From a phage, in assembly GCA_033286805.1 (NCBI GenBank), contig GCA_033286805.1_4727.1: a DNA stretch of 64,000 nucleotides. The stretch is one strand, 5' to 3'. The position numbers were made by a program, and so were the translations under genes. The first letter of the stretch is position 1. Every line of letters begins with the position of its first letter. The notes beneath the pieces were generated by a model. It saw only the letters and a program-made list of their open reading frames with translations. It searched no databases and was not told where the DNA came from. Positions 11,959-55,110 of this stretch are shown here, piece after piece.

Positions 11959-11992
11959 TTCTTACGATCCTTTTTATTTATTCGGTTATGTG

Positions 11993-13789
11993 TCAATCGA
12001 TTATGTCACGATCGTTAATTTCTACAATTTCTTCATCGAATCGACCGACGTCTTTCTTCAAGCCTGCATTGGTTGCTGCAACGTCATTTGCAATTTGTGG
12101 GGTAATGATTAACCGACCACGTTCGTCGATAGGTGCGTACATACTGAACTTTTGACGTCCGGTTGGTTCGGAGTGTGGAAGATTCAGATAGCTTGCACAG
12201 AACGGGATGGAACCACTAACCAAACGACTCTCGTCAGCCAATGCAGCACCGCCTGCGTTTTGGCTCTGGAGAACAACATGCGTGCTCACTTTGAACAGCA
12301 TGCAATCACCCGGTGACTGAATCGATGTTGCCACTTTCTCACGTTTATCACGATTGCTCTGGATATTGAGAATCGCTTCCGTTGCAACTTGATTTCGCAA
12401 CGCCTTCTGCACATCGCGATTGGTCATCTCTTTACGGTTGTTCTGTCGTTTGCCACGTTCTGTGGTTTTAAGATGGAACCCCAGTTTAAAGATGCTTTTA
12501 CGCACATCCTCCATGACATATTCCAACACCATCAATTCCTTACCGAACATCGTCGTGGTGTCAACACGACTCATTTCGATAGTAACATTGTCAATCAGAT
12601 ACGCCATAAATTCGTAGAAGTCGTCGCAAGGAATATTTTCCTGTTTGAACTTCTTCTGTTGAATTTCGTCAACGTAAAGATCGAGACTGTCGATGTGGTG
12701 GTTTACATCACGCAACAAACGCGCATCCGCATTGTTGTTATTAAAGATAATCAAACCGAGTAATGTACGCCAATGGTCTGGCGCATTTGCGAACTCCTCA
12801 ACCGGATAGTCTTCCGGAAAACGATCGTAATAACGGTCGATGAGATATAGGAACGCACCGACAAGGCCAAGAACAATACGTTCCGTGCCTCCACGTCTTA
12901 CAGCAATTTGAATATCAGGATGTTTGTAACGTACAGCGCTAGCGCTACGGCTTTTACCGCTTTTGCTGATACTAAAGCCTTTAGGAATAACCCCCATGGT
13001 GCGATAGATTACCCATTGGTCACGCGGAAAATCACGTTCAGCAAGGTTCCGTCCGGTTACGGCTTCGACACCTGCAAAACGTCGGAAACACTCACCCACC
13101 CCGTACTTCGCAAAGAGATAGTGACCCAGTGTGGTTACGCTGGTGTGGTTGATGTTGTCACCGTTCACTTTACTTTGTTTGGTAAGATGATAGATTTGCG
13201 ACCAGGGTAATGACAGGTAATGACGATAATCGATACCGGTCGGTGTATCATTGCTCAGGAACTGATACGGTGTACGTTTAACCGTGATTTTATCACGCGG
13301 AAGCATGATGAACGCCATGTCTTTCGTGTAACTGATTACGGGGTCAGCGAGTACCGCACTGAGAATGAAGTTCGCACCACGTAGACGCATTTTACCACCC
13401 TGACCTACCGCGGGTAATAGGAGAGGATGTCGGATAATGCAGTAGTCCTTTCCGGGTTCACGACGGTCGCCTGATTCCATCGCGCCGTACCAGCGGAATT
13501 CCAGCATCACCATAAACACATCGGAAGGCGCAAGGTCGAAGGTCAGCTTACCGCTATCCTTCCCTTTGGTTTTCTTTCCTCCGCTTAAGTAGTGGAACTG
13601 TTCGCGGGCCATACAGCGACGCAGGCCATGATACACCAGATCCTTAGGTAAACTATCTTTGCTGTTCCGCCAAAGACGATCAACATAGGACTCAACATCT
13701 TGCATCTTATCGACGACGATGTTGCGTGCTATCTTCTCGTTCATCTTCGGTGCAAGCTCAGCGACAGCTTTGCAGAATCTAGGATCCAT
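11993..13789 (-). CDS. hypothetical protein (598 aa)
   Basis: ORF track start 13792 is GTG; adjacent ATG at 13789 has AAAGGAG RBS at 6 nt spacing. Confidence 0.65.
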   Translation of the reverse strand: MDPRFCKAVAELAPKMNEKIARNIVVDKMQDVESYVDRLWRNSKDSLPKDLVYHGLRRCMAREQFHYLSGGKKTKGKDSGKLTFDLAPSDVFMVMLEFRWYGAMESGDRREPGKDYCIIRHPLLLPAVGQGGKMRLRGANFILSAVLADPVISYTKDMAFIMLPRDKITVKRTPYQFLSNDTPTGIDYRHYLSLPWSQIYHLTKQSKVNGDNINHTSVTTLGHYLFAKYGVGECFRRFAGVEAVTGRNLAERDFPRDQWVIYRTMGVIPKGFSISKSGKSRSASAVRYKHPDIQIAVRRGGTERIVLGLVGAFLYLIDRYYDRFPEDYPVEEFANAPDHWRTLLGLIIFNNNNADARLLRDVNHHIDSLDLYVDEIQQKKFKQENIPCDDFYEFMAYLIDNVTIEMSRVDTTTMFGKELMVLEYVMEDVRKSIFKLGFHLKTTERGKRQNNRKEMTNRDVQKALRNQVATEAILNIQSNRDKREKVATSIQSPGDCMLFKVSTHVVLQSQNAGGAALADESRLVSGSIPFCASYLNLPHSEPTGRQKFSMYAPIDERGRLIITPQIANDVAATNAGLKKDVGRFDEEIVEINDRDIID

Positions 13790-13828
13790 CACACACTCCT
13801 TTCAGAAAGTTGCTTAAGCAGATTAAAG

Positions 13829-15265
13829 TTACTTTTTCGATGACGCTTTCTCAAGAATCTTGAAAAAGGTCATACCTATACCGACAACAGCCGCGGTTAT
13901 GCTTGCAGCGGCTTTCCAAACATCGACGTTACGTTGACGTCGCGCTTCTTCCGCTTCACGTTGTCTTTTTGCCTCTTCATCACGTCGACGTATCTCAGCA
14001 GCAAACTCGTCGTGCTTACGTTTGGATTCTTCGTCTCGACGACGAAGTTCAGCGACGAATTCTTCATGTTTGCGTTTAGCCTCGTCATCACGACGTTTTA
14101 AATCAGCTTGATAATCTTCGTGTATTTGTTTACGTAGATCATCTTGACGCTTCATTTCGGCTTGGTGTTGTTCCATCCTACGTTTTTGTTCGTCTTTAAG
14201 CTGATCGAGTTCGGCTTTATGTTGTTCATCACGCAGCTTTGCGTCGGCGCGATGCGCCTCATGCATCTGTGCGATAACTGCCTTGTGTTCATCCGCCATA
14301 CGTCGCATTTCAGCCATCACCCCTTTAAGGGTTTCTTCTGATGCCTTACGTTCGTAGCTACGTTGGTCGAAATCATTTTTGTAGGCTTCTTTTTGGATGG
14401 GGTCGCGCCAATGTAATGCCGATTCACGTGTCGGAAAAACATTGTACTTCCACATCTCTTTTTCCAAATCTTCGACCGGTACGAAGATGGAGTCATTATT
14501 ACCGAAGGTAACCAACATACCTGGCGCACCTGCTCCATTCGTTGGTTTTATTTCGAACGCTTTCCCCAGCACGTTAACCCATAAGCTATACGGATTATGA
14601 AAGTCGGGTGGCGTCCAATGGATAGTGAGTTGCGTTCCGAGAATCCGGAAACCCTCTGTTTTTCCCGTCAAGCTCCGCGCGCACGTTGCGATGTAGGGGT
14701 GATCAATCCCTTTCGTAACGTGGTCTGCGCTTTTGTATTCTCCTTTAACTTTTACGATTGCCACGTTGATTTGCGCGACATAAGCGGGTTGATTAAAGTT
14801 CAGCGTGTTGAGGTCAATTTGACATATTTCATCCAGCGTATCGTACCAGTCTTGCTGGTCTAATAGACGCGGCATTTTCTCTGTGTTAACAATACGACGG
14901 ATATGCGGTTTCCTTATCGCGTAACCTGTGCCGTTTTTAACACGGAGTATATCCCGACGTCTACCCGCGTAGACGAAGTTTCTGAATGCACCATTCGCAT
15001 TAGATACGTCATGGCTGTCAACTATTACAGGACTACGAAATTTTGAACGTCGTACGATCCTGAATGTATTGCCGTCCTCAACCCTACCAGGAATGTACTG
15101 GAACATATTGTCGGAGGTGATAACCAACACGGTATGGCCAGATTCATTAATACATGCCCATCCTAATTCCAGGTCATATAACGGTTCGGCATAACCGTCA
15201 ATGCGATATGCGTGCGTACCATCCCACGGTTCGAACGCGGTATCACATATTGGCATGGAGGGCAT
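13829..15265 (-). CDS. hypothetical tail-anchored coiled-coil protein (478 aa)
   Basis: ORF track start is TTG; ATG at 15265 has GGAGG RBS; globular N-terminal region, K/R/E/D-rich heptad-like region with 18-aa repeats, then hydrophobic segment AAASITAAVVGIGMTFFKIL near the C-terminus. Confidence 0.6.
   Translation of the reverse strand: MPSMPICDTAFEPWDGTHAYRIDGYAEPLYDLELGWACINESGHTVLVITSDNMFQYIPGRVEDGNTFRIVRRSKFRSPVIVDSHDVSNANGAFRNFVYAGRRRDILRVKNGTGYAIRKPHIRRIVNTEKMPRLLDQQDWYDTLDEICQIDLNTLNFNQPAYVAQINVAIVKVKGEYKSADHVTKGIDHPYIATCARSLTGKTEGFRILGTQLTIHWTPPDFHNPYSLWVNVLGKAFEIKPTNGAGAPGMLVTFGNNDSIFVPVEDLEKEMWKYNVFPTRESALHWRDPIQKEAYKNDFDQRSYERKASEETLKGVMAEMRRMADEHKAVIAQMHEAHRADAKLRDEQHKAELDQLKDEQKRRMEQHQAEMKRQDDLRKQIHEDYQADLKRRDDEAKRKHEEFVAELRRRDEESKRKHDEFAAEIRRRDEEAKRQREAEEARRQRNVDVWKAAASITAAVVGIGMTFFKILEKASSKK
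13925..14090. repeat. about 2.5 tandem copies of a 54-bp unit inside the coiled-coil gene
   Basis: repeated protein unit RRRDEE(A/S)KRKH(E/D)EF(V/A)AE(L/I); the DNA units are near-identical. Confidence 0.55.
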
Positions 15266-40571: not shown

Positions 40572-40605
40572 ATTGAAATCCTTATTTACAAATAAAGGAA
40601 AGAAA

Positions 40606-41811
40606 ATGTCTAATTACTACGACCAAGCTATTCAAACCATTCAGGAGAATAATGCGTCGTTAACACCCGAAGCTGTGGAGGCAGCGGGTAATGCGGTGTT
40701 ATTCACTGATTCGGATTGGGCAATAGCGCGGAAGAATATTCGTACCAGTGTCGGTCAAGGGACATACGAGGACAGTATCGCCAGACGGTATCGGAATGTC
40801 TCACCTATTCCGGGTAACAGTCCGATTCCGATTAACCGCGATCATGCCGGTATTACCTTCTTCACACGACCTAATTTACATCTTACCGACGCGAACTTAA
40901 AACGAGATCGACGTTTGTGGTCGTTACGCACGGATAACCCTAACAGTATTCAGGCTGTTGTCCGCGACTACTTGGACCCTGTGGGTGCCAGAAAGCGGAA
41001 CCATCGAGGACGTGCCATCGTCGATGAGCGCAATCCATTCATAAGTATACTGACGGACAACCTAACGGATATCAGTGGCTTCAACGACATGGAAATGCAG
41101 GTCTATCAGGGCAAACCGGGATTACGCCAAGAAACCGTTGTGATGGCTGACGGTTCGGTGGATATGTTTCAACCCTATAACCTGAACGCGACGTTCAAGA
41201 ACATCATGGGTAACCCCATCATGTTCCTTCATTATATTTGGTTGATTTACATCGCGGGCGTGCATAATGGCGAACTGACGCCAAGCCCTCAGGCCATCAT
41301 TGATAATGAAATGGATTACTGGACAAGATGTTATCGTATCATCTTGGATCCGACTGGGATGTATGTTCGTTATATCTTCGCACCGACCGCGATGTTTCCT
41401 GTCGGACTACCGATTGGTAATATGGCTAACTACAGCATCGATAAACCCTTCACGCAAGATAACGAACGTATCACTATTCCATATCAGGCGGTTGGTAACA
41501 ACGCATTCGATGAGATTCTGAAGGATGAATTCAATCGACTTGTCCTGATGTTCTATTACGGTGAGAACGATACCCGTACGTTCCTTGAAGATGAGGAGCT
41601 GGTACCTATCTCACCCTACGAGCGTCGAATCATGTCGTATCGTGTCGATATGTATCCATTTATTCATCCGTTGACCTCAGAGCTTCTTTGGTTCGTACCC
41701 GCTGATGATTACAACGAATTCTATCTGGATCTTGAGCCGTCGGCGTTACCACCGGATACGTTCAGTCGCGACCTTGTCCGTACCACCATTCCGCAAAATT
41801 ACGAGGGATAA
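40606..41811 (+). CDS. hypothetical protein (about 401 aa)
   Basis: ORF track start 40573 is TTG; ATG at 40606 has AAAGGAAAG RBS. Confidence 0.6.
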   Translation: MSNYYDQAIQTIQENNASLTPEAVEAAGNAVLFTDSDWAIARKNIRTSVGQGTYEDSIARRYRNVSPIPGNSPIPINRDHAGITFFTRPNLHLTDANLKRDRRLWSLRTDNPNSIQAVVRDYLDPVGARKRNHRGRAIVDERNPFISILTDNLTDISGFNDMEMQVYQGKPGLRQETVVMADGSVDMFQPYNLNATFKNIMGNPIMFLHYIWLIYIAGVHNGELTPSPQAIIDNEMDYWTRCYRIILDPTGMYVRYIFAPTAMFPVGLPIGNMANYSIDKPFTQDNERITIPYQAVGNNAFDEILKDEFNRLVLMFYYGENDTRTFLEDEELVPISPYERRIMSYRVDMYPFIHPLTSELLWFVPADDYNEFYLDLEPSALPPDTFSRDLVRTTIPQNYEG

Positions 41812-44871: not shown

Positions 44872-47800
44872 TTATCTTACGTTACTGCTATTCTGCTGTT
44901 CGCTGAACCAACCGTACACCTTGAGATCGGTACCATATCTCAGTGCGATATACGCATTCAGCGCAGCACAGAACAAAGACGCGAATGCCCATATCAGCGA
45001 AGGATCAACATCTTCCGTTACCACTGGGAGAGTATTATCCGGTTCCCATGATGGAGAACTGTCCATGAACGTCGTGTACCATTCCCGCCGTTGTTCTTCA
45101 GTGGTAAAGTCGCTATGGGGTTCCAATGCTTCTTTTGCCAGACGTCGATATTCGAACATATGCGTTGCTAAAGCCGATGAGTTACCAGATTCGCCTTCAT
45201 AGTTCGGATCCACCGCATAACAGAGTTCTGTGGAATCTAACAAAGCGACCGCCTGTGTGATGCTGTCGGCAGTGCCTGCACCATAGAGCTCGATAGACCG
45301 CGAGAGCTTCTCACAGAACGCATTTAACGCGGCAGGATTGGACACCTGAAGGTCAAGGCCTAATGTCCACGGATAGTTACTGAATACACCCGTAAACCGC
45401 GGCATAACACCCAACAGATGTTGTCCGATTACAGCACGGTTATAAACAGCCCGGTTATAGACTTGAAACGCAGCCTCCAGGGCTTGGTTATAATGACGAC
45501 GAAGTTCATCACGCGTGTTGCGGAACCTGTTTGCCGCGAGACTTGTGGCTGCAACGCTACAAACATCGTAATTGGTGGACGAGAGCACAACCTCGTTAAG
45601 ATCGAACGATTCCTGTTTCAATGTTCCGCTAACAGCTGCCGCTTCGCTGTTCGCTTTATCGACAACTGTACTCAAAGCGTTGATGTAACGTTTAGCTCGG
45701 ACCTCCAACCATTGTGCGATGCCGAGAATATCCACCGCAGCTTTAGCAAGATCGCGTGCATTCACGATTTCGTTCTTCAACGCCCCTAAACCTTTATTTT
45801 CAGGCGATGAGGCTTGTTGACGAATCATGCTGTTCAACATGGTAAGCAGATTATCCAACTCATGTCCGCTGACCTTGTTACGCGCATCGGTAATCGGCCC
45901 TTGCAGGAATTTACGGCAACCATCGTTGTATCGAATCAGTTTATCCACATCGATAGATTCGTTCGTAGATTCCTTGAACTGATCCTTCAATTCTTCACGG
46001 TAGTCGTGGATTTCACTTGCGAGATTATCGATAGTGATACCGTCATGTCCAAGAAGAACTTTATTGAAGTTACCTTTCTCGAATGCCAGAGCAAGACCTT
46101 CACGAATCTTAGCGAGTTTATCCTGATCGAGTTCACGACCGTTCGATAGCTCTTTCACTTCCGAGCTGATTAATGCCGAAACGTTACCCAGATTGTCGGT
46201 AACTCCTTTGAACGCTCCCGACCAAATCGTTCCTACTTCAGCATATTTCGCAATGGTCTGAATACCGACGGTGTGTAGCGACGCTAAACGTTTCTTCGTG
46301 CCTTCGGTAAGCAGAGCGTCTTTAGCTCGCGTAAGCTGACTGTTATTAGCTTCCGCCTGCTGAATCGCTGCTTTCGCACTTCCATTACGCCAGCTCTTAA
46401 CCAGCCAATCAACCAAACGTTTTAGGATATTGACGGTGTATTCCATTGTCCGCCGTAACGTTTCCCACGCGCTTTCTGCGGTATAGATGCCGTACCCTTC
46501 CATCTTCAACGCTTTCAAGCTTGTTTGACGTGCCAACCATTCTACCGTTGCAGAGCAAACGTTTACTAATGCTTCCAGGTAGTTGTAATAGACGTCTGTT
46601 GCAGTTGTTTCGTTGAACTTTGAATGCAGATAGAACTGATCGTAAAGTTCGTCGTCATCGCCGAAGGCATCATAGTTCCACAGTTCTGTATCACAACCTG
46701 TACCGCAGAAGACGTCAGCTGTCGTAAACTCTTTAAGCGCTTTAGCTGCGTCATTTGTCAGGAATTTACCTGTTTCAACTACATCGTCAACATTAAGCTT
46801 GGGGAGTTCGTCGGTGACTGGCTCTTCCAACATCAGCATATTGAAGAATGTGCTGTACTTGTATCCGAGCCATTTTGGATAACTGCTTTCAGGGATCGTA
46901 GACAGCGGCTTGATTTTCTTGGCTTCAGCCAATGTGTCTTTTGCGACCTGATATTGGTTTTCCCCAGCCTTGACGCGACGTAATGCTTTTTCTTCCAACT
47001 GCTTAAGCTTGGCATGGCGTGCTTGTGCTGGAGCTTCAACAAGTTTTTGTACCGACCGCATTGCAGAAATCGCTTCTTTTAATACGATCATCGGCATACG
47101 AACTTTACCGTCGTCGAAACTAAGAGCGCGAGCGACACGTTTACTTACGACCGGCTTATCATGGATATTTCGTTCCACCCACGATTTGTTTGCGTAAGTT
47201 TGAGCGATCTGCTGTTGGATATTTTCAAGGTATTTCCAGCTGCTGGATGCTTTATTATCCAAAAGCGGATTCGGTCCCTTCTTATCGAAAAGTTTCAGAA
47301 TCGGACCAAAGAAACCTTCCTGTACGAGTTCGATACGCGTGTATCCGTCAGCCGCTTCGATTTCTTCTTGGGTTTTGTCCCAGAGCTGTTCACTACGGAC
47401 AGCAGTAGCTGTTTCAGATACCGACATAACAAGCTCGGCAACAACTTCAGCGCAGGTCAGTACGGTACGCACGCATTGCAGTAGCATACGCTGGTAAACG
47501 ATACGGGCGTTTTGTAAACGTGCGATAACCGCTAAATAACCGATATTGTCAAGACGTTCGTCGGCTTGAGCAGAGTCAACACGTTCTATCAGTTGTTTAA
47601 CCAGCGCGGCTGTTTCCGGATAATCGTTCACGACGTCACGCATAATTCGTGATGCGAAAACCGCGGTACCTAAAACAGTGAGGAGTGTTTTACTATCCCA
47701 TTCTTTTGGTGTCGCTACCGATTCAGTAGGGATGAGATTTCCCGCCTGGTCGAAGTACGGCATAAGGACATTGATATCAGTAGACGGAACAGCAGTAATT

Positions 47801-48477
47801 GCGTTATACTCTTCATCCGCACCATCGTTGCCAGACGGCTGTAATGCAAGTGCTTGTTCAAGGATTTTGCGGTCAGCGGCATAAAGCGCCGACAGAGCTT
47901 GCGTTGCCGCAACCAAATCAACGATCGGCGACCAGAGCTGTGCGAGCTTACCTTCGTATTTCCGTACAGCGATAGCAAGGTCTTCTTTTACGTCTGGATG
48001 ATTGATTAAACCACCCAATGTTTCATGGATGGCAGAAAAACGTTCGGAATGTGCTTGTGTCAACGCGGTAAAATCGTCAACGTACGACGCATTTTCTTCA
48101 AGGCGTGTAAGTTCCTGCTCCAGGAGATCTTTTACTTGCGTAGCAGATGCGTTTCTCAACTGTTCACCGATAATCGCGATGGCTTTATCGACAACGCGAC
48201 AAGCTTCATTGAAGCCGGTTGTTGAAGGTAACTCGGTCCATAATGCCAGCGGCTTACCTTCCATTGCGTCAGGAAGGGAATATGACAACATTGCTAGTTG
48301 TTGACGTGATACCTGTTTGTCACGATGTAATGTTTCTTTCAACGCCAGAAGCTCATCAAGACCCACACTGCTAGGGATCGTGGGATGTGATACAGCGTTG
48401 ATGTTTTCTGCTAATGACTCAAGAACCAATAAACCATTTTCAGCGGAAGATAACCCTGCTTTAAGGTATTTGTTCAT
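44872..48477 (-). CDS. very large hypothetical protein (1201 aa), alanine/leucine-rich and helical; virion internal protein-like
   Basis: ORF track; GGAG RBS; composition similar to the 932-aa and 1128-aa proteins. Confidence 0.65.
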   Translation of the reverse strand: MNKYLKAGLSSAENGLLVLESLAENINAVSHPTIPSSVGLDELLALKETLHRDKQVSRQQLAMLSYSLPDAMEGKPLALWTELPSTTGFNEACRVVDKAIAIIGEQLRNASATQVKDLLEQELTRLEENASYVDDFTALTQAHSERFSAIHETLGGLINHPDVKEDLAIAVRKYEGKLAQLWSPIVDLVAATQALSALYAADRKILEQALALQPSGNDGADEEYNAITAVPSTDINVLMPYFDQAGNLIPTESVATPKEWDSKTLLTVLGTAVFASRIMRDVVNDYPETAALVKQLIERVDSAQADERLDNIGYLAVIARLQNARIVYQRMLLQCVRTVLTCAEVVAELVMSVSETATAVRSEQLWDKTQEEIEAADGYTRIELVQEGFFGPILKLFDKKGPNPLLDNKASSSWKYLENIQQQIAQTYANKSWVERNIHDKPVVSKRVARALSFDDGKVRMPMIVLKEAISAMRSVQKLVEAPAQARHAKLKQLEEKALRRVKAGENQYQVAKDTLAEAKKIKPLSTIPESSYPKWLGYKYSTFFNMLMLEEPVTDELPKLNVDDVVETGKFLTNDAAKALKEFTTADVFCGTGCDTELWNYDAFGDDDELYDQFYLHSKFNETTATDVYYNYLEALVNVCSATVEWLARQTSLKALKMEGYGIYTAESAWETLRRTMEYTVNILKRLVDWLVKSWRNGSAKAAIQQAEANNSQLTRAKDALLTEGTKKRLASLHTVGIQTIAKYAEVGTIWSGAFKGVTDNLGNVSALISSEVKELSNGRELDQDKLAKIREGLALAFEKGNFNKVLLGHDGITIDNLASEIHDYREELKDQFKESTNESIDVDKLIRYNDGCRKFLQGPITDARNKVSGHELDNLLTMLNSMIRQQASSPENKGLGALKNEIVNARDLAKAAVDILGIAQWLEVRAKRYINALSTVVDKANSEAAAVSGTLKQESFDLNEVVLSSTNYDVCSVAATSLAANRFRNTRDELRRHYNQALEAAFQVYNRAVYNRAVIGQHLLGVMPRFTGVFSNYPWTLGLDLQVSNPAALNAFCEKLSRSIELYGAGTADSITQAVALLDSTELCYAVDPNYEGESGNSSALATHMFEYRRLAKEALEPHSDFTTEEQRREWYTTFMDSSPSWEPDNTLPVVTEDVDPSLIWAFASLFCAALNAYIALRYGTDLKVYGWFSEQQNSSNVR

Positions 48478-48558: not shown

Positions 48559-51357
48559 TTACGCTAATTTACCGAAACCGGCTTTCTGTAGTTTCTCGTT
48601 GATCAGTTTTGCTTCCGCGAAAACATAATCACGATACGCGGTCACTAACCCGTCCACCCGTGAACGCAAGGCTTCTTCGAAGCTATACCACGCAGCGATT
48701 TCACGAATCTGTGCGTTGATATAATCAACGGTTGAGCGAAGCTCGGTTGCGTTTTCTTGCGGGATGGCTTTCACCTGGCGAGCAACGTCATTTAAACGAC
48801 GGAACTGTGTTTCGATTTCTTTAAACTTACTGTCGGCAAGTTTGCTGAATTCGTCACCAGAACGGGTAAATAACAGATAGCTGTTGCCGTCAAGTGCGGT
48901 CGCTAACTGCTGAAGTACGTTGGTGTCCGGATACACAGGAGTACCGCTTTGCAATACTTTCTCACCGAATTCCGCGAAGTCCTTCGGCGGTAAGTGCGCA
49001 GACGTTGTCAATTCGTTGAAACGGAAAGTCAGCGAATTATCATACAGCATCCGGTACGCTTCCATACCCTGTTTCATGGTACCGGCCAGGTTAGCCAGAC
49101 GCGGAGCAATCTCACCCTCTTTAGCGCGTTTCTGATCTTCTAACGCCCCTTCCAGTTCTTTACATTGGTCGTTCAGATACACGATACGATCGGGACGCAG
49201 ACGACGCATCTCACGAAGAATAGTATCCAGCTTGCCTTCCTGGAAATAACCTAACGTTAAAGACGTACACGCTTGCTGAAGACGATCGAAGACCGGTAAA
49301 GTCACCATCTCCTTACGGATACCATCAACAATCGCAGAGACAGCCGAAAGTTTCTGTTCTGTCGTTAATGGAACATCAGAGGCCGACTTGCTGGGTGCAC
49401 CAACAACGTTACGCATTGCGTCGGTATCCTCGGTTTTATCAACCTCTTTACGAACATGCTCATCAGGAACATAAACGTTAGCATTACGTTTCGCCTGCTT
49501 GATGGCGTCGTTGGCCGCTTTTTCGGTGGCTGCTACGCTATCAGCACGTTTCTTCAAGAGTTCAATAATCCAGAGCAACAGACGACGAATCGCAGTATAG
49601 GCCGTCGTGATGATGACACCGATAACAGCCATCTTCATGATACCGAACGATTCCATGGTCGGCTCTAATGCCTGGTCTGGCATATACCGTTCACGCAGTT
49701 CCAGATAGATCTGCTCATCTGGTTTGCTGACCTCACCACGATGCGAAGTACGATAGATGGCTTCGTCAATCTCAACAAGATCTTTGCGGGCCTGACGGTC
49801 TGTTTCGGTCAGATAAGCGCAGCCAGATACGTCGTCTTCAAAACTTTCGAACTTAAAGAAATCGACAACCATCTGGGCAAGCATCTCCTTCTTAGCAGGA
49901 TCGAGTGTCTTCGCATCTTCTTTTTGCTTAGCCGCTGCTTTATCGAATTTCTCTTTGTAATCATTCAGGGGTTTCACTGCTCTTGCTTTCAGTGCCTGAT
50001 AAATGATTTTCCAATCATCGTCACGTTCGAGGATGATGAAATGGTTTTTGAGTTCGAAAGCGCGATAGCGTGCAACGAGCTGTTCCACCTGAATGTGGGC
50101 GAGTTGGATATCCATTAGCCAACGGGACATCGCTGAAATCAAACGACTAAAAGCAAACAGCGCTTGATACGCGAGTTTCATATGCGTCTCGTACAGCTCT
50201 ATATCGCCGCTCCGGATATCGGCTGTTGGATTCATTTCTTTCGTTGCTTTGAAGATCTGCTCTGCTTCTTTCAGCGTCTTTTCGAACTTAACGTCATTAA
50301 ACGCGGTGAATGGTTCAGCGAGCTCATGCATTTTATCATGGAGTTCACGAACCCAAGCTTCCTTGTTGTTGCGGATGACGCTTCCATCGTGAAGTTCGGT
50401 TTGGTGTTTCTGTACCCATTCTTCGACGATATCTGCTGCGGCGACAACACCGACGTTTTTACCAACGAGAGGAACAATGGCTTCAAGTGTGCCGCGTCGG
50501 ACACCCCATAACCGATTTACCGAATCGTAGAATTCTCTGATCTCGGCTATATGTGGAACAATATTTAAGAAGGTGTTCCCGTTATGGCTCATCGATGAAG
50601 CCATTTCCGAGAATTGCTGGAACTTAATGACGACATCAGGGATCGTGTCCATCAGCCATTCTGCAGTATACTTCGCTTTCTCTTTCAGATTTTTGTCAGC
50701 GATTTCTTTAAGGTTAATCGCGCTACCGTATCCTGCAAGTTCGTTGTAGACGTCGTTAACCGTCATCTCTTTATCCAGCATTTCTTTAAAACGTGGATAA
50801 TCTGCACCTAACGCATCGATGACTTCTTGGATGATGTCGTCTGTGGTGGCGATAAATTTATTCGTACCCCCGTAATGTTTCCAGATTTTCTGTAGCGTCT
50901 TCTTAAAGAATTCGAAGACGAATGTCCAGATACGCTTAATGAGTTCCCAGACTTTCTTCGCACCATCGACAAACAGTTTAGAGACCTTGGCAACGAATCC
51001 TTCCTGTACCAACTCAACGCCGTTACGTGATGGGATTTCGGTGAAGAAAGCATCCGGTAGTTGTTTCGGGAACGCATCACCAAGTCGCATACGCAATTCG
51101 GGTACATCGGCACGAGAAATACCACGCGTCGTTAGCTGCTCGTGAAGACGAACGTTTTCTTCACCAGAGGCTACGAATTCGTTAACGTCAAATGAAACCA
51201 GTTCTTGATCTTCGGTGGTAACGACGCTTGAACCGTCACTGGTTTGGATGTCTTCGTCAGGGAATGCCATGAGCATACCGTGACGCATTTCAACCACTCC
51301 GTAATCGGTTGCTAAACCGAATTCGTTGTGGTCTGGGGTAATAACTGGGATACTCAT
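48559..51357 (-). CDS. very large hypothetical protein (932 aa), helical; virion internal protein-like
   Basis: ORF track; ATGA overlap with the upstream gene. Confidence 0.65.
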   Translation of the reverse strand: MSIPVITPDHNEFGLATDYGVVEMRHGMLMAFPDEDIQTSDGSSVVTTEDQELVSFDVNEFVASGEENVRLHEQLTTRGISRADVPELRMRLGDAFPKQLPDAFFTEIPSRNGVELVQEGFVAKVSKLFVDGAKKVWELIKRIWTFVFEFFKKTLQKIWKHYGGTNKFIATTDDIIQEVIDALGADYPRFKEMLDKEMTVNDVYNELAGYGSAINLKEIADKNLKEKAKYTAEWLMDTIPDVVIKFQQFSEMASSMSHNGNTFLNIVPHIAEIREFYDSVNRLWGVRRGTLEAIVPLVGKNVGVVAAADIVEEWVQKHQTELHDGSVIRNNKEAWVRELHDKMHELAEPFTAFNDVKFEKTLKEAEQIFKATKEMNPTADIRSGDIELYETHMKLAYQALFAFSRLISAMSRWLMDIQLAHIQVEQLVARYRAFELKNHFIILERDDDWKIIYQALKARAVKPLNDYKEKFDKAAAKQKEDAKTLDPAKKEMLAQMVVDFFKFESFEDDVSGCAYLTETDRQARKDLVEIDEAIYRTSHRGEVSKPDEQIYLELRERYMPDQALEPTMESFGIMKMAVIGVIITTAYTAIRRLLLWIIELLKKRADSVAATEKAANDAIKQAKRNANVYVPDEHVRKEVDKTEDTDAMRNVVGAPSKSASDVPLTTEQKLSAVSAIVDGIRKEMVTLPVFDRLQQACTSLTLGYFQEGKLDTILREMRRLRPDRIVYLNDQCKELEGALEDQKRAKEGEIAPRLANLAGTMKQGMEAYRMLYDNSLTFRFNELTTSAHLPPKDFAEFGEKVLQSGTPVYPDTNVLQQLATALDGNSYLLFTRSGDEFSKLADSKFKEIETQFRRLNDVARQVKAIPQENATELRSTVDYINAQIREIAAWYSFEEALRSRVDGLVTAYRDYVFAEAKLINEKLQKAGFGKLA

Positions 51358-51794
51358 GCATTCTCTCCTTGCAGTGCGTTAGCGAAAGCCGTTGCGAGTT
51401 GCGCAACCAGTTTCGGATCAACACCTTCGATAACGTCAGGCAGCCCTGCGGTTTCCTGGTCACGAACGGCGGAGGCTAATAACAGCATGGTTTCAGGCGC
51501 GGTTGGCTCATGCACCATGCGGTAACGCAGGCACCAGAAGTAGCGAGCAACGTCTAACGCATCAGCCAGCCCGATAACCAGCACCTTGTTCAGCTTATCC
51601 AACCCTTCACGGATTTTAGGGAGATGTTCACGAACGAAGATGCTGTCCGCAGTCAGATCTTCTTTTTCAGCGAATACCGGCATGCTGTAACCGGCGATGT
51701 AACCAGCGGCAATACTTAATGCGCGGGTCTGTTGTTCGGCTGGGAAGTCACGTACCAGGTCTTTCAGCTGAACGGCGAAATCAGAAATATTCAT
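51354..51794 (-). CDS. hypothetical protein (146 aa)
   Basis: ORF track; AAAGGAA RBS. Confidence 0.55.
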   Translation of the reverse strand: MNISDFAVQLKDLVRDFPAEQQTRALSIAAGYIAGYSMPVFAEKEDLTADSIFVREHLPKIREGLDKLNKVLVIGLADALDVARYFWCLRYRMVHEPTAPETMLLLASAVRDQETAGLPDVIEGVDPKLVAQLATAFANALQGENA

Positions 51795-51826: not shown

Positions 51827-53137
51827 TTAGGCGATAATGGAATCAAGAGTCGCTGCGGTTTTGAACAGATCGCTGTTCATTGTAGAAGAAAGGACTTGCT
51901 GAATTTCTTCCTGTTTAACCGCTTTACGAACCCCAGGACGAAGGATAAGCGTAACCATCTGTGAAAAGGTACGATTATTGTTCATCGCACTCAGCGTTTC
52001 ATCGATTGTTTTGATGGCATCCAGCGTCATGGAACGAACATCGCTTGGGATATCACGATCTTTCAAGCGTATAATTAAATCTTGTTTGATTTTACGGAAT
52101 CGTTCCATGTCGTTATCGTAAATGCTGTATGTCGGATCTAACCAAACAGAAAGCGCGGTTACAGCGACAACAACCAACACGCCGATAGCACCAACAGAAG
52201 CTAAACCTATCGCCATCATAGAAGCTATAGTAGCATCCATGATGAAGGAGAGCCAGAACATCGTTTTGGACTTCACGGAGTCTTTGCTATAAAGCCGATA
52301 CATTTTAGCAAGCCCGCTAACGAGATACTCCCCACCACCATGACGCGTAGCGAACTGATCGGCCATGAATTCGGAAGCAACGTCGGTATATCGTCCAGCG
52401 TTGTTTACATTTCGTAACTGCATTGCTCTGTTAGACACGTAAACCGTGTACCAGACACTACCATCGTCTGAATCACTGATTTTGTCTACGTCGACGTTGG
52501 TATCCAACGTTTTGTTTAACGCTTTCGCCAGTTCGATACGTTTTACCTTATCGGTTGTCCCCAACAGTTCACGCTGTACGGTCATGATTGAGGCTTCGAC
52601 ACGAACCGTTTCCGACAATGTTTCAAGGAAGGTAAATGCGTGCCCGATTTCATGCAGCATTATGGCTGCTTTTTCTTCCGGAAGAAAGGGTTCTGTCGCT
52701 GTTAGCAATTCATACGTGATGGCAGAACGAATCTTCAATTCTTCAAAGATACCGTAAACACGACCTTTTTCTAAATCGACGTAACCGACAGGCGTATCTT
52801 TAATCTTCTTAAGGAGCGTAACGCCATCAGCACCGCGCATCCATAACCGATGATAGTCTGCCAGAATTGTGTTGTTTGTCGAAATATCCGGTGGGTACAC
52901 GTAGGCATTCATTTGGCCCATTTTCACGTCGACCGAGAATTCGATGTTCAACCCCGTATAGCGTTTAACCATCTCGGTTAAACGACCGTCCTTGAAAACG
53001 TTTAAAACCTCTTTTTTATCCAGTCCCTGTTTGCTTCTGAAGAACTCGGTCATTTCCTTGAACAAGGAACCATCTTGAAACTTGATGGCCTCCATCGTTA
53101 ATTCGTCATGACCGTACACGCGTTGTAGTAATGACAT
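51827..53137 (-). CDS. putative membrane-anchored M48-like (HtpX/Ste24-type) zinc metalloprotease (436 aa)
   Basis: HEIGH at aa 162-166; EFMADQFA at aa 256-263 resembling the M48 third-ligand motif; hydrophobic segment of about 35 aa at aa 295-333. Confidence 0.5.
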   Translation of the reverse strand: MSLLQRVYGHDELTMEAIKFQDGSLFKEMTEFFRSKQGLDKKEVLNVFKDGRLTEMVKRYTGLNIEFSVDVKMGQMNAYVYPPDISTNNTILADYHRLWMRGADGVTLLKKIKDTPVGYVDLEKGRVYGIFEELKIRSAITYELLTATEPFLPEEKAAIMLHEIGHAFTFLETLSETVRVEASIMTVQRELLGTTDKVKRIELAKALNKTLDTNVDVDKISDSDDGSVWYTVYVSNRAMQLRNVNNAGRYTDVASEFMADQFATRHGGGEYLVSGLAKMYRLYSKDSVKSKTMFWLSFIMDATIASMMAIGLASVGAIGVLVVVAVTALSVWLDPTYSIYDNDMERFRKIKQDLIIRLKDRDIPSDVRSMTLDAIKTIDETLSAMNNNRTFSQMVTLILRPGVRKAVKQEEIQQVLSSTMNSDLFKTAATLDSIIA

Positions 53138-53358
53138 TGTACACTCTCTAAATTTACGTAAATTTAAGGGCTAATGGATCGGCTGGCCGCACCAATCACA
53201 ATGTGTCCGCTGCTATGCAACGGCATTCATAGAAATACCTTTTGACGGTAACATCACCGTTCATAGCCCAAGCAATAAGAGTGGTCGGTTAAAAACAACA
53301 GAACGTGGGGATGATATAGAAAATCACCTTTTAACACTTATTACGAGTTTATCAAGCC

Positions 53359-55110
53359 ATGAGCGAACAAGAACGAAAACCTAAGAAGAAACTGCTCGGT
53401 ATTCAATGTCGACACATCAGCTATAACGAAGCGAACGATGGCAGCAAGAACGACCTCATGATCGCAAAAGAGATCATGTTCTTCGATGATAATACGCAAG
53501 CGACGAATCTTCGCTTCTTCGAGAATTACAAACGTCCGTTTTGGGTGACGGTAGAGAGTAAACGTAAGAACAAATATAAAAAGGAAAGCGAGAAGCTCTC
53601 GCATGTGCGTCGCTATGATGTCCGCCAAAGTGAACTGGTTGAAAAGATCAGTTCGGTGCTTTATAAAAGACGTGCTGATGACAACACCCGTCTACAGCAG
53701 CTTGCACGGAGTCCATACCTCTATGGCACGGACGTTAGCGCCAGCTGTTATTTAAAAACCCAGTACAACACAAAATGGCCGGAATACGTCGATAAATTAC
53801 CCGCTTCCATTGCCTGTTTCGATATCGAAACCGACGTTGTCCACGGGCACGGTAAGATCGTCTGTATGTCTATTACAATGGGATACAATGCGATACTTTG
53901 CTATACCAAGGACTTCGTTGGTCATATTCCGAATGCGATTGAGAAAACCCATGAGAAGATTCGATATTACCTGGCCGAACGTCTGAATACCAAAGAAGAT
54001 CCTCATGCGTTCGAAAAATATCATTACGATGTGCGAATCGTAGAAAGTCCGGCGCAAGCAGTCATCCAGTGCATGCAGAAGGTTCACGAATGGCAGCCGG
54101 ATTATCTCCTTGGCTGGAATATCGCGTTCGATATTCCGCGCATGCTCCAGGCACTGAACGAGGAAGGGTATCGTCCCGAGGATGTTTTCTCCGATCCTCG
54201 TGTACCACCTAAATATCGTATTGCTCGCTGGGTACCACCGAAGACAGACAAGGTATCTGCTTCAGGTCGTAAAACCAACCTTACCCTTGAGCAGACCTGG
54301 CCGATGTTTTATACGATGGCCACATACCAGGTTATGGATGCGATGTGCGGTTATAAGTTCGTTCGTTTAGGAAGACCGGATGAAGGACGCTATTCACTCG
54401 ATGCGGTGTTAGAGCGAAATAAATGCCATACGAAATTAAAAGCGATTCCTGGTACAGAGGGGTTCACGGAGCTTGCGTGGCACGAAGAGATGCAAACGAA
54501 CCATCAAATCGACTACGGCGTATATAACCTTTGGGATAACCAGGGTATCGAGGCGTTGGACCAGAAAACAAAAGACTATTCGATGACCATCCCTATTCGT
54601 TTGGCGGCGTCGGATTTGAAAGATTTCAGTTCTAACCCTAAACGTATCTGTGACAAACTTTTCTTCGTTTATCTTAACCGTGGGGAAGTCATGGGATGCA
54701 CTGCCGACGACATGACCCAGGAAGAAGATAAGTGGGTTATCTCACGAACCGGACATATCGTCACATTACCGTGCGATCTCATGGCGGACAACGGCATTCA
54801 TCTCTTCTGGGATATGCCGAACCTGAGAAGTTATATCCGTCTATTCGTTGCAGACCTCGACATTAGCAGTTCATACCCAAACGGGCAGATCCTGTTGAAT
54901 TTATCCAGAGCATGTGTTTTTCGTGAGCTCTCGCGCATTGAAGGCGTCTCTGACTATCAATTCAGGAAGTTAGGTATCAACTTTATTACCGGAGGTAAAA
55001 CGAACGCTGTAGACTTCTGTAGAATCGTTTATAAAGCACCATCGATGTTCGAACTCTTAGAACATTTCGATGCAACGCGTCCAAAAGGGGAAGCGCGGAC
55101 CATCGAATGA
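53359..55110 (+). CDS. family-B DNA polymerase, N-terminal fragment (3'-5' exonuclease domain plus palm motif A) of a split polymerase
   Basis: Exo I FDIETD (aa 154-159), Exo II GWNIAFDIP (aa 252-260), Exo III YNLWD (aa 389-393), motif A DISSSYPNGQILLNLS (aa 501-516); gene ends about 80 aa after motif A with no motif B or C. Confidence 0.6.
   Translation: MSEQERKPKKKLLGIQCRHISYNEANDGSKNDLMIAKEIMFFDDNTQATNLRFFENYKRPFWVTVESKRKNKYKKESEKLSHVRRYDVRQSELVEKISSVLYKRRADDNTRLQQLARSPYLYGTDVSASCYLKTQYNTKWPEYVDKLPASIACFDIETDVVHGHGKIVCMSITMGYNAILCYTKDFVGHIPNAIEKTHEKIRYYLAERLNTKEDPHAFEKYHYDVRIVESPAQAVIQCMQKVHEWQPDYLLGWNIAFDIPRMLQALNEEGYRPEDVFSDPRVPPKYRIARWVPPKTDKVSASGRKTNLTLEQTWPMFYTMATYQVMDAMCGYKFVRLGRPDEGRYSLDAVLERNKCHTKLKAIPGTEGFTELAWHEEMQTNHQIDYGVYNLWDNQGIEALDQKTKDYSMTIPIRLAASDLKDFSSNPKRICDKLFFVYLNRGEVMGCTADDMTQEEDKWVISRTGHIVTLPCDLMADNGIHLFWDMPNLRSYIRLFVADLDISSSYPNGQILLNLSRACVFRELSRIEGVSDYQFRKLGINFITGGKTNAVDFCRIVYKAPSMFELLEHFDATRPKGEARTIE

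What the first reader, a model, noticed from the sequence alone, without database searches (positions are those of the whole stretch)
51827..53137. Membrane-anchored M48-like zinc metalloprotease in a phage genome
HEIGH (aa 162-166) is followed 94 residues later by EFMADQFA, matching the HExxH...E(F/Y)xAD arrangement of M48 peptidases (HtpX/Ste24/Oma1 type), and then by a hydrophobic segment of about 35 residues (one or two transmembrane helices). A membrane metalloprotease is unusual for a phage and is distinct from prohead proteases. Candidate roles include processing host or phage membrane proteins, lysis regulation, or countering a host defence; the gene is followed in the same operon by a 146-aa gene of unknown function.
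Basis: partly seen in the sequence, partly recalled or inferred. Interest (0 to 1): 0.55.

Follow-up and report, generated by a model that had tools for sequence, protein, structure and literature searches.

The report
Capsid-packaged M48-like zinc protease, jumbo phage
This gene encodes a probable zinc protease with a greasy membrane-type hairpin that giant "nucleus-forming" phages (the phiKZ/Goslar family) all carry and pack in tens of copies inside the virus head; the protein family is already catalogued, but what the enzyme cuts is unknown.

Summary
ORF 51827-53137 (-) encodes 436 aa with HEIGH at 162-166, EFMAD at 256-260 and a hydrophobic helical hairpin at about 291-333.

The window is a close relative of E. 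coli jumbo phage Goslar (94% nt). The protein is the ortholog of Goslar gp067, phiKZ gp84, SPN3US gp45 and Chimalliviridae core gene cg22 (PHROG 2767, "unknown function").

- Goslar virions contain about 48 copies, including the active-site peptide.
- SPN3US gp45 loses a 20-residue propeptide to the prohead protease, at a Glu that aligns with the conserved E16 here.
- The two downstream genes encode the capsid's inner vertex-binding complex.
- phiKZ orf84 tolerates no transposon insertions.

Best guess (about 0.35): it is delivered or exposed at infection and acts at the host inner membrane or early-infection vesicle. Its substrate and its location in the head are unknown. It is a new variant of a known kind, of moderate interest.

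The parts
51827..53137 (-). Gene for the 436-aa M48-like metallopeptidase. It is the ortholog of Goslar gp067, phiKZ gp84, SPN3US gp45 and Chimalliviridae core gene cg22 (PHROG 2767).
   Evidence: ORF list. 91.5% aa identity to Goslar gp067. PHROG 2767 at E 2.6e-82. tblastn finds 243 phage records, including PHIKZ084. Core genome table.
53090..53137 (-). Predicted N-terminal propeptide (aa 1-16, MSLLQRVYGHDELTME). It ends at the conserved Glu16, the probable prohead-protease cleavage site.
   Evidence: E16 is present in 185/188 relatives. P3 is S, A, G or T in 177 of the 183 counted. E16 aligns with E20 of SPN3US gp45, whose 20-residue propeptide is removed by prohead protease gp245. pLDDT is below 50 for aa 1-15. 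P3 is Thr here, so cleavage in this phage is inferred.
52640..52654 (-). HEIGH (aa 162-166): two zinc-ligand histidines and the catalytic glutamate, on the active-site helix.
   Evidence: H162, E163, G165 and H166 are invariant in 188/188. The motif aligns to HELGH of ZMPSTE24. The tryptic peptide containing it was detected in Goslar virions.
52358..52372 (-). EFMAD (aa 256-260): the predicted third zinc ligand, Glu256, within the M48-type ExxAD..FA...G motif.
   Evidence: E256 and D260 are 188/188 invariant. The motif aligns to [12 protein letters not shown] of ZMPSTE24.
52139..52267 (-). Hydrophobic helical hairpin (aa 291-333). It is a predicted membrane-insertable segment and a local hot spot of divergence.
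   Evidence: Hydropathy and AF2 helices 291-313/317-333. A hydrophobic stretch sits at the same position in all 28 homologs tested, with no sequence conservation. 20 of the 37 differences from Goslar gp067 lie in aa 300-330, where nt identity is 57%.
51830..52120 (-). Conserved C-terminal helical domain (aa 340-436) of unknown role. Y340, R346, K359, Q413, L424 and F425 are invariant or nearly so.
51354..51794 (-). Downstream gene 1 (146 aa): ortholog of Goslar gp66 (structural homolog of phiKZ gp85), a vertex-binding-complex protein on the inner capsid surface.
   Evidence: 99.3% aa identity to Goslar gp066. Role from the Goslar cryoEM preprint. A gene carrying Pfam PhiKZ_gp85 sits at this position in a distant relative.
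48559..51357 (-). Downstream gene 2 (932 aa): ortholog of Goslar gp65 (structural homolog of phiKZ gp86), also a vertex-binding-complex protein. Its start overlaps the stop of the 146-aa gene by 4 nt. It has its own hydrophobic helix near aa 572-597.
   Evidence: 90.9% aa identity to Goslar gp065. Role. Hydropathy. Pfam PhiKZ_gp86 genes sit at this position in a distant relative.
53138..53358 (.). 221-nt divergent intergenic region between the protease operon and the DNA polymerase gene. It presumably holds the phage promoters; none was identified.
   Evidence: The sigma-70 scan was uninformative. The same divergent arrangement occurs in Goslar, phiKZ and SPN3US.

Best explanation
Identity (confidence about 0.9). 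The gene encodes the Goslar gp067 / phiKZ gp84 / SPN3US gp45 protein, a core protein of phiKZ-like (Chimalliviridae) jumbo phages. It is a divergent M48-like gluzincin. Zinc is predicted to be held by H162, H166 and E256, with E163 as the catalytic base.

The protein is made with the head proteins and enters the prohead. It probably loses its first 16 residues to the prohead protease. It stays in the mature head in tens of copies. It is co-transcribed with the two vertex-binding-complex proteins (gp66, gp65).

Mechanism (inferred, confidence about 0.35). The enzyme is carried in the head as cargo. At infection it is released with the DNA and other internal proteins. Its hydrophobic hairpin then inserts into the host inner membrane, which becomes the early-infection (EPI) vesicle. 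Both soluble domains would sit on the same face of the membrane. There the enzyme would cleave membrane-associated host or co-injected phage proteins, as cellular M48 enzymes (HtpX, Ste24, Oma1, BepA) act on membrane or envelope substrates.

What is shown, and for which protein:
- For this protein and its family: homology, motif invariance, M48-like fold, conserved hydrophobic hairpin, conserved operon.
- For orthologs: presence in virions (Goslar, phiKZ), propeptide cleavage (SPN3US), absence of transposon insertions (phiKZ).

What is inferred: catalytic activity, membrane insertion, ejection and substrates.
For: M48-like enzyme:
- The family profile hits ZMPSTE24 at E 0.007 and aligns both motifs.
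- 16 of 26 relatives hit Pfam Peptidase_M48 at E<=1. P0043 passes the gathering score, 24.6 vs 20.3 bits.
- H162, E163, G165, H166, E256 and D260 are invariant in 188/188.
- Viral structure matches include entries named 'Peptidase M48 domain-containing protein' and AR9 'Zincin protease'.

Head cargo:
- Goslar gp067 was found in CsCl-purified virions with 19 peptides and 46.8% coverage. The estimate is 32/48/76 copies, and the active-site peptide was seen.
- PHIKZ084 is annotated 'structural head protein'.
- SPN3US gp45 is a prohead-protease substrate with a 20-residue propeptide, which its authors compare in length with T4 capsid-targeting sequences. The matching Glu is conserved in 185/188.

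Importance:
- It is Chimalliviridae core gene cg22.
- phiKZ orf84 has 0 filtered transposon insertions in 1242 bp, while deletions of orf85-86 are tolerated.

Membrane action:
- A hydrophobic stretch lies at the same position in all 28 homologs tested, although the sequence is not conserved. This is the behaviour expected of a lipid-facing segment.
- The flanks are basic on both sides.
- The genome of these phages is injected into a vesicle thought to derive from the inner membrane, together with many head proteins.
- The catalytic site is retained intact in the mature virion, which argues for a job after assembly.
Against: - No experiment shows protease activity, zinc binding, membrane insertion or ejection for any member of the family.
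- gp84 is not among the virion proteins named as co-injected interactors of phiKZ gp93.
- Some phiKZ head proteins (gp89, gp162) stay in the head, so packaging does not imply ejection.
- The copy estimate (about 48) and the operon partners fit a fixed position at the 55 vertex-binding complexes as well as they fit free cargo.
- The window protein itself scores below the Pfam M48 threshold, 10.7 vs 20.3 bits.
- Foldseek against the PDB found nothing significant.
- The model is only moderately confident (pLDDT 74).
- The TnSeq result may include polar effects.
Confidence: 0.35

Rival explanations
1. Assembly-stage role. The hairpin tethers nascent procapsid vertices (with gp65/gp66) to the cytoplasmic membrane, where chimallivirus capsids assemble. 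The protease acts during head morphogenesis, for example by releasing the procapsid from the membrane or processing vertex or inner proteins. The copies found in virions would be leftovers.
For: - Capsids of the Pseudomonas chimalliviruses assemble on the membrane.
- The gene is co-transcribed with the vertex-binding-complex genes in Goslar, phiKZ, SPN3US and distant metagenomic relatives.
- The protein enters the prohead early enough to be cut by the prohead protease in SPN3US.
- The copy estimate of 32-76 brackets 55, the number of vertex-binding complexes per head.
- The partner gp65 and the SPN3US protein at the same operon position (gp47) also carry a hydrophobic helix.
Against: - In SPN3US every mapped processing site follows a Glu in an A-X-E motif cut by the prohead protease, and the phiKZ gp93 site also follows a Glu. 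No second cleavage specificity has been reported.
- A protein enclosed in the prohead cannot easily remain embedded in the cell membrane.
- phiKZ gp85 and gp86 are dispensable while gp84 shows no insertions, so its key role is unlikely to be only as their partner.
Confidence: 0.25
2. Fixed capsid component. The protein is a peripheral subunit of the inner vertex-binding complex, possibly the unassigned density next to gp65. Its hydrophobic hairpin is buried against gp65's hydrophobic helix rather than in lipid. The zinc site acts inside the head, or serves a structural role.
For: - Unassigned density lies beside gp65 in the Goslar vertex map.
- The operon is shared with gp65 and gp66.
- The copy number is in the range of 55-copy proteins: gp65 is estimated at 76 and gp42 at 79 by the same method.
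- The protein was not modelled in the Goslar structure and is not mentioned in either phiKZ structure paper, consistent with a flexible or sub-stoichiometric subunit.
Against: - The hairpin sequence is the least conserved part of the protein, and 20 of its 31 residues differ between two 94%-identical phages. Meanwhile gp65's hydrophobic helix is identical in both. This is unlike a specific protein-protein interface.
- Strict invariance of all catalytic residues in 188 sequences argues for catalysis, not only structure.
Confidence: 0.2
3. The M48 resemblance is misleading. The protein is a non-catalytic helical structural protein with a fortuitous or degenerate HExxH.
Against: - Both motifs align to ZMPSTE24 in the right order and spacing.
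- One relative passes the Pfam cutoff.
- All three predicted zinc ligands, the catalytic Glu and the ExxAD Asp are 188/188 invariant, and the HExxH-to-E spacing stays at 94-98 residues.
Confidence: 0.04

Closest known systems
SPN3US gp45 / phiKZ gp84 / Goslar gp067 (PHROG 2767; Chimalliviridae core gene cg22)
   Same: Full-length homologs (91.5% identity to Goslar gp067; 24-27% to SPN3US gp45 and phiKZ gp84). They share the motifs, the position of the hairpin and the operon. All are virion head proteins. SPN3US gp45 has a 20-residue propeptide cut at the Glu that aligns with E16.
   Different: Nothing essential; this is a new allele of the same protein. The hairpin cassette differs from Goslar's. 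No function has been published for any member in the library searched. Most records say 'hypothetical' or 'virion structural protein', and a few say 'M48 family' or 'peptidase'.
Ste24 / ZMPSTE24 (MEROPS M48A, integral-membrane CAAX protease)
   Different: Ste24 has seven transmembrane helices that enclose a chamber. The phage protein has one hairpin, a distinct alpha/beta N-terminal region and a roughly 95-residue C-terminal helical domain. Identity is only 17-18% over about 170 residues. The phage protein is packaged in a capsid.
BepA/YfgC, HtpX and soluble M48 peptidases (e.g. PDB 3c37)
   Different: HtpX has its hydrophobic segments before, and between, HExxH and the third ligand (from memory, not tested here). 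BepA has a TPR domain. None is a virion protein or has a prohead-protease propeptide.
T4 internal head proteins with capsid-targeting sequences (IPI-III, Alt)
   Same: Short N-terminal propeptide removed after a Glu by the prohead protease, and low-to-moderate copy cargo of the head. The SPN3US authors themselves make the length comparison. That the T4 proteins are ejected is from general knowledge.
   Different: There is no sequence relationship. The T4 proteins are not metalloproteases and have no hydrophobic hairpin. Ejection of the phage M48-like protein is unproven.
phiKZ gp175 / SPN3US gp245 prohead (maturation) protease
   Same: Both are proteases found in the head.
   Different: It is an unrelated enzyme that cleaves after Glu in S/A/G-X-E or A-X-E motifs. 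The M48-like protein is one of its substrates, not a paralog.

Membership tests
Peptidase family M48 (MEROPS M48 / Pfam PF01435) | HExxH zinc-binding and catalytic motif on the active-site helix | tested here: met
   HEIGH at 162-166. It is invariant in 188/188 relatives and aligns to HELGH of ZMPSTE24.
Peptidase family M48 (MEROPS M48 / Pfam PF01435) | Third zinc ligand is a Glu in an ExxAD motif about 75-95 residues downstream (gluzincin) | tested here: met
   E256 in EFMAD. The spacing is 94-98 residues in all 28 homologs checked. E256 and D260 are 188/188 invariant. The motif aligns to EFQAD of ZMPSTE24.
Peptidase family M48 (MEROPS M48 / Pfam PF01435) | Score above the Pfam gathering threshold (20.3 bits) | tested here: not met
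   The window protein scores 10.7 bits, E 0.47. Among relatives, 16 of 26 hit at E<=1. Of the relatives whose bit scores were read, P0043 passes at 24.6 bits, P0176 gives 19.0 and P0039 gives 16.3. Membership is therefore at clan or remote-homolog level only.
Peptidase family M48 (MEROPS M48 / Pfam PF01435) | Fold similarity to solved M48 structures | tested here: inconclusive
Peptidase family M48 (MEROPS M48 / Pfam PF01435) | Zinc-dependent peptidase activity | not testable with these tools
   No biochemical data for any member were found in the literature searched.
phiKZ gp84 / SPN3US gp45 head-protein family (PHROG 2767, Chimalliviridae cg22) | Full-length sequence homology | tested here: met
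   PHROG 2767 at E 2.6e-82 over 12-432. phiKZ gp84 E 6e-24 and SPN3US gp45 E 3e-25 over the full length. Goslar gp067 91.5% identity. Core-genome table.
phiKZ gp84 / SPN3US gp45 head-protein family (PHROG 2767, Chimalliviridae cg22) | Conserved operon: protease gene, then gp85-like gene, then gp86-like gene, divergent from the DNA polymerase gene | tested here: met
   Seen in the window, Goslar, phiKZ, SPN3US and SPFM4 and metagenomic loci carrying the Pfam PhiKZ_gp85 and PhiKZ_gp86 domains.
phiKZ gp84 / SPN3US gp45 head-protein family (PHROG 2767, Chimalliviridae cg22) | Incorporation into the virion head | not testable with these tools
   Shown for orthologs only: Goslar virion LC-MS/MS, the phiKZ annotation 'structural head protein', and SPN3US head proteomics.
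phiKZ gp84 / SPN3US gp45 head-protein family (PHROG 2767, Chimalliviridae cg22) | N-terminal propeptide removed by the prohead protease at S/A/G-x-E | tested here: inconclusive
   E16 is conserved in 185/188 and aligns with the SPN3US cleavage site. Here P3 is Thr (T-M-E), as in 34 of 183 relatives. No N-terminal peptide data for Goslar could be retrieved.
Prohead maturation protease (T4 gp21 / phiKZ gp175 type) | Homology to the serine prohead-protease family | tested here: not met
   No such Pfam or PHROG hit. The family is a substrate of that protease in SPN3US.
Capsid vertex-binding complex (Goslar gp42/59/65/66/192; phiKZ gp28/85/86/91/119/162/184) | Resolved position in the complex on the inner capsid surface | not testable with these tools
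   gp67 is absent from the Goslar preprint's text and atomic model (0 occurrences), and gp84 is not mentioned in either phiKZ structure paper. Unassigned density exists next to gp65. No multimer prediction tool was available.
Integral membrane protein (helical hairpin) | Two adjacent hydrophobic helices long enough to span or dip into a bilayer, conserved in position | tested here: met
   The maximum 19-residue Kyte-Doolittle mean is 1.5-2.9 in 28/28 homologs, always downstream of ExxAD. Charge-free stretches are mostly 19-50 residues long, and as short as 14-16 in two homologs. AF2 models helices 291-313 and 317-333. Actual membrane insertion is untested.

The most novel reading that the evidence does not exclude
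The M48-like protein would be a virion-delivered, membrane-inserting metalloprotease that takes part in making, maintaining or opening the early-infection (EPI) vesicle. It could do this by cutting inner-membrane or co-injected proteins at the entry site, or its roughly 50 hairpins could help bend or pinch the membrane. That would make it one of the first phage-encoded factors tied to this membrane organelle, and the first capsid-borne M48-type enzyme with a defined role.
Probability: 0.15. Interest if true: 0.8.

Novelty: new variant of a known kind. Interest (0 to 1): 0.45.

Why it matters
Chimalliviruses are studied intensively for their phage nucleus and the lipid vesicle that receives the injected genome. 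The phage factors that act on membranes at entry, or at membrane-bound capsid assembly, are not known.

This protein is one of the few core virion proteins of the family with a clear enzyme prediction. Its catalytic residues are invariant, it has a membrane-type hairpin, it is present in virions, and phiKZ tolerates no transposon insertions in its gene. Even so, it is labelled 'hypothetical' or 'structural' and is absent from the text and atomic model of the Goslar structure preprint and unmentioned in the two phiKZ structure papers.

It is therefore a specific, testable candidate, using catalytic-dead alleles, tagging and vertex-map refinement. For this window itself the gene is an ordinary ortholog of a catalogued family.

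Tried and rejected
- **Direct Pfam scan of the protein.** Only sub-threshold hits were found. The SCAMP and CASP hits cover only the hydrophobic stretch and are compositional.
- **phmmer against PDB sequences.** No hit.
- **Foldseek against the PDB.** Nothing significant. The afdb50 library was unavailable.
- **NCBIfam and PADLOC.** No hit, so there is no support for a defence or anti-defence assignment.
- **Literature searches for gp84, PHIKZ084 and 'jumbo phage M48'.** No functional study was found. Thomas et al. 2012, the phiKZ head proteome (PMC3323674), is not held. I therefore could not check gp84's copy number or processing in phiKZ.
- **BLASTP of the window's gp66 and gp65 against phiKZ gp85/gp86 and the SPN3US neighbours.** No detectable similarity. 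Equivalence rests on 99% and 91% identity to Goslar gp66 and gp65, on the structural homology stated in the Goslar preprint, and on position.
- **Two long fusion relatives (P0164 at 1237 aa, P0176 at 839 aa).** I examined them for a Rosetta-stone clue. Their N-terminal extensions match no Pfam family and nothing in the window.
- **Sigma-70 promoter and terminator scan.** Counts were near shuffle expectation for promoters and modestly above it for terminator-like sites, and nothing usable emerged. These phages use their own RNA polymerases.
- **Prohead-protease identity.** Rejected (see the membership test).
- **Lysis-regulator idea.** Rejected for lack of any support. The gene sits in the head module and the protein is in virions.
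Full report
**1. The observation**

The minus-strand ORF 51827-53137 encodes 436 aa. HEIGH is at aa 162-166 and EFMAD at 256-260, 94 residues apart. A hydrophobic stretch runs from about aa 292 to 339, with a peak 19-residue Kyte-Doolittle mean of 2.57 and no charged residue between 302 and 333. Window coordinates for each element were verified by translation.

A chance HExxH is expected 0.003 times in a protein of this composition. The 146-aa ORF follows after 32 nt. It overlaps by 4 nt the start of a 932-aa ORF, so the unit has three genes.

**2. Where the window comes from**

The region is 94% identical in DNA to Escherichia phage vB_EcoM_Goslar, a 237-kb jumbo phage. The three ORFs are orthologs of Goslar gp067, gp066 and gp065, at 91.5%, 99.3% and 90.9% aa identity. 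The divergent neighbour is the DNA polymerase gene (PHROG 3011).

**3. Which family it is**

- The protein matches PHROG 2767 ('unknown function') over its whole length at E 2.6e-82.
- tblastn finds it in 243 phage records: Pseudomonas, Erwinia, Salmonella, Serratia, Ralstonia, Vibrio, Klebsiella, Aeromonas and others. These include PHIKZ084, PhiPA3 086 and 201phi2-1.
- Most records say 'hypothetical' or 'virion structural protein'. A few say 'putative M48 family lipoprotein protease' (Serratia phage Yaphecito) or 'peptidase' (Erwinia phage AH04).
- The Chimalliviridae core-genome table lists cg22 = Goslar gp067 = phiKZ gp084 = RAY gp286.
- A profile search of 1.84 billion cluster representatives finds 3,817 relatives at E<=1e-3 and 1,744 at E<=1e-30. 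Nearly all of the best 150 are 410-460 aa long.

So this is a large and uniform family, not an oddity.

**4. Is it an M48-like metallopeptidase?**

*Sequence.* In 26 relatives at 21-92% identity, H162, E163, G165, H166, E256, D260, F262, G267 and R346 are invariant. In 188 relatives, H162, E163, G165, H166, E256, D260, G129 and R346 are 188/188 invariant. The HExxH-to-E spacing stays at 94-98 residues.

The window protein alone is below the Pfam Peptidase_M48 cutoff, 10.7 vs 20.3 bits. However, 16 of 26 relatives hit that model at E<=1, and P0043 passes it at 24.6 bits.

A family profile searched against PDB sequences hits ZMPSTE24 at E 0.007. Both motifs align: 'eEiaAilLHEiGHa' with the HELGH region, and 'EflADqFAtRhGaGrdLvtaLdKl' with '[24 protein letters not shown]'.

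Against viral predicted structures, the model matches the same family. More distantly it matches entries named 'Peptidase M48 domain-containing protein', 'Beta-barrel assembly-enhancing protease' and two Bacillus phage AR9 'Zincin protease' proteins.

*Negatives.* phmmer against the PDB and Foldseek against the PDB found nothing.

*Conclusion.* This is a divergent M48-like gluzincin with an intact catalytic site. Formal Pfam membership is not met for this sequence.

**5. It is a head protein**

The Goslar cryoEM preprint (10.64898/2026.04.21.720040) reports LC-MS/MS of CsCl-purified virions. Its Table S4 lists YP_009820752.1 (gp067) with 19 peptides and 46.8% coverage. The estimated copy number is 32/48/76 (low/median/high). 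The peptide AAIMLHEIGHAFTFLETLSETVR, which spans the active site, was detected. The protein does not appear in the preprint's main text or its atomic model (0 occurrences), and gp84 is not mentioned in either phiKZ structure paper.

RefSeq annotates PHIKZ084 as 'structural head protein'.

SPN3US gp45 (450 aa) is a full-length homolog (24% identity, E 3e-25). Its E20 aligns with E16 of the window protein. Two SPN3US studies show that gp45 is a substrate of the prohead protease gp245. It has a 20-residue N-terminal propeptide, which the authors compare in length with T4 capsid-targeting sequences. The cleavage motif is A-X-E.

Across 188 relatives this Glu is present in 185. Among the 183 counted, P3 is S (60), A (56), T (34) or G (27). 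Residues 1-15 are disordered in the model.

The protein therefore enters the prohead and is very probably trimmed there. For this phage (T-M-E16) that step is inferred.

**6. Operon partners**

[quoted passage not shown] It also shows unassigned density next to gp65. The phiKZ capsid structure describes the equivalent complex.

The gene order is protease, then gp85-like, then gp86-like, divergent from the DNA polymerase gene and convergent with a gp87-like baseplate gene. This order holds in Goslar, phiKZ, SPN3US and SPFM4. It also holds in metagenomic relatives at only 23-28% identity, where the neighbours carry the Pfam PhiKZ_gp85 and PhiKZ_gp86 domains.

By the same mass-spectrometry method, 55-copy vertex proteins are estimated at 16 to 194 copies. 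The value of about 48 for gp67 is compatible with one per vertex-complex unit but does not prove it.

**7. Importance**

In the phiKZ TnSeq study, the filtered table shows 0 insertions in PHIKZ084 (1242 bp; the genome average is one insertion per 42 bp). PHIKZ085-087 also show 0. The authors obtained deletions of orf85-86, so the lack of insertions in orf84 is not explained by polarity on those genes. Polar or other artefacts remain possible.

**8. The hairpin**

Every homolog tested (28/28) has a hydrophobic stretch at the same place. Charge-free runs are mostly 19-50 residues long. The sequence is not conserved.

Between the window protein and Goslar gp067, 20 of the 37 differences fall in aa 300-330 (Fisher p = 5e-17). 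Nucleotide identity there is 57%, against 79-100% elsewhere in the gene. In the hairpin dS is 1.42 and dN 0.51, against dS 0.24 and dN 0.018 for aa 1-299.

Goslar-like phages carry at least two distinct hairpin alleles between conserved flanks. This fits a lipid-facing segment under weak sequence constraint, possibly exchanged by recombination. It fits a specific protein interface poorly, because gp65's own hydrophobic helix is identical in the two phages.

Both flanks of the hairpin are basic. If it inserts in a membrane, both soluble domains would lie on the same face.

**9. Mechanism**

*Shown for this protein and its family:*
- homology, motif invariance, M48-like fold, conserved hairpin and conserved operon.

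*Shown for orthologs:*
- presence in virions, propeptide cleavage in the prohead, and absence of transposon insertions.

*Inferred:*
- catalysis, membrane insertion, ejection and substrates.

I favour the entry-stage model at about 0.35. In it, the enzyme is head cargo released at infection, inserts into the inner membrane or EPI vesicle, and cuts membrane-associated host or co-injected proteins. The reasons are as follows.
- The mature virion keeps an intact active site.
- M48 enzymes characteristically act on membrane or envelope proteins (general knowledge).
- A short propeptide cut after Glu is also the hallmark of T4's ejected internal proteins (general knowledge).
- The only membrane a mature head protein can meet is the host's. 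In these phages the genome and many head proteins enter a vesicle thought to derive from the inner membrane.

Against this model, gp84 is not among the named co-injected interactors of phiKZ gp93, and some head proteins are known to stay behind.

The rivals are:
- An assembly-stage membrane tether or processing enzyme (0.25). Capsids assemble on the membrane in the Pseudomonas chimalliviruses.
- A fixed peripheral subunit of the vertex complex with a buried hairpin (0.2).
- A non-catalytic look-alike (0.04).

**10. Comparison and novelty**

The closest relatives are its own orthologs, for which no function has been published in the library I could search. The closest characterised enzymes are Ste24/ZMPSTE24, BepA and HtpX. 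It shares their catalytic core and motifs.

It differs in four respects:
- a single hairpin after the ExxAD helix, instead of a multi-helix chamber;
- its own N-terminal and C-terminal domains;
- a prohead-protease propeptide;
- packaging in a capsid.

I rate it a new variant of a known kind. The family is catalogued, and a few database records already say 'M48'.

Interest is moderate at 0.45. The gene in this window is an ordinary ortholog, but the family is a good, testable lead in an active field.

Noticed in passing
window 53359-55110 (+) compared with L001 (Goslar) 10361-13964: The DNA polymerase ORF is uninterrupted here (583 aa). In Goslar the same gene is annotated as 499 aa (100% identical) and is followed by a 1.78-kb insertion carrying a NUMOD1/HNH homing-endonuclease gene (gp069). 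The last 85 codons resume after the insertion at 97.6% aa identity. This phage therefore has the insertion-free (intron- or intein-less) allele.
   Followed up: partly
window 52139-52267 (-), aa 300-330 of the protease: The hydrophobic hairpin is a sharp divergence hot spot relative to Goslar: 57% nt identity against 79-100% elsewhere, with dS 1.42 against 0.24. At least two discrete alleles circulate among Goslar-like phages. This looks like a swapped cassette rather than gradual drift.
   Followed up: partly
window 44872-48477 (-): The ORF downstream of gp65 is 1201 aa, against 930 aa for Goslar gp064. The C-terminal 544 aa are 98% identical, the N-terminal 392 aa only 48% identical, and about 265 aa are extra in between. 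It is a mosaic gene with no Pfam hit, and its function is unknown.
   Followed up: partly
window 48559-51357 (-), aa ~572-597 of the gp65 ortholog: This vertex-binding-complex protein has its own hydrophobic helix (GIMKMAVIGVIITTAYTAIRRLLLWII). SPN3US gp47, at the same position in the operon, has a predicted transmembrane helix that its authors linked to host-membrane interaction. So two proteins of one operon, both inside a lipid-free capsid, carry membrane-like helices.
   Followed up: partly
proteins P0164 (1237 aa) and P0176 (839 aa) from the representative search: Two metagenomic relatives have the whole M48-like protein fused behind long N-terminal extensions (about 810 and 408 aa). The extensions have hydrophobic segments but match no recognisable domain and nothing in the window. 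They could be real fusions or gene-calling artefacts.
   Followed up: partly
window 40573-41811 (+): A 412-aa ORF matches Pfam Phage_TTP_15 (putative tail tube protein) at E 2e-79. It sits where Goslar has gp62, which the Goslar preprint assigns to the tail tube initiator complex. The same domain flanks the protease operon in distant metagenomic relatives (L004, L005).
   Followed up: no
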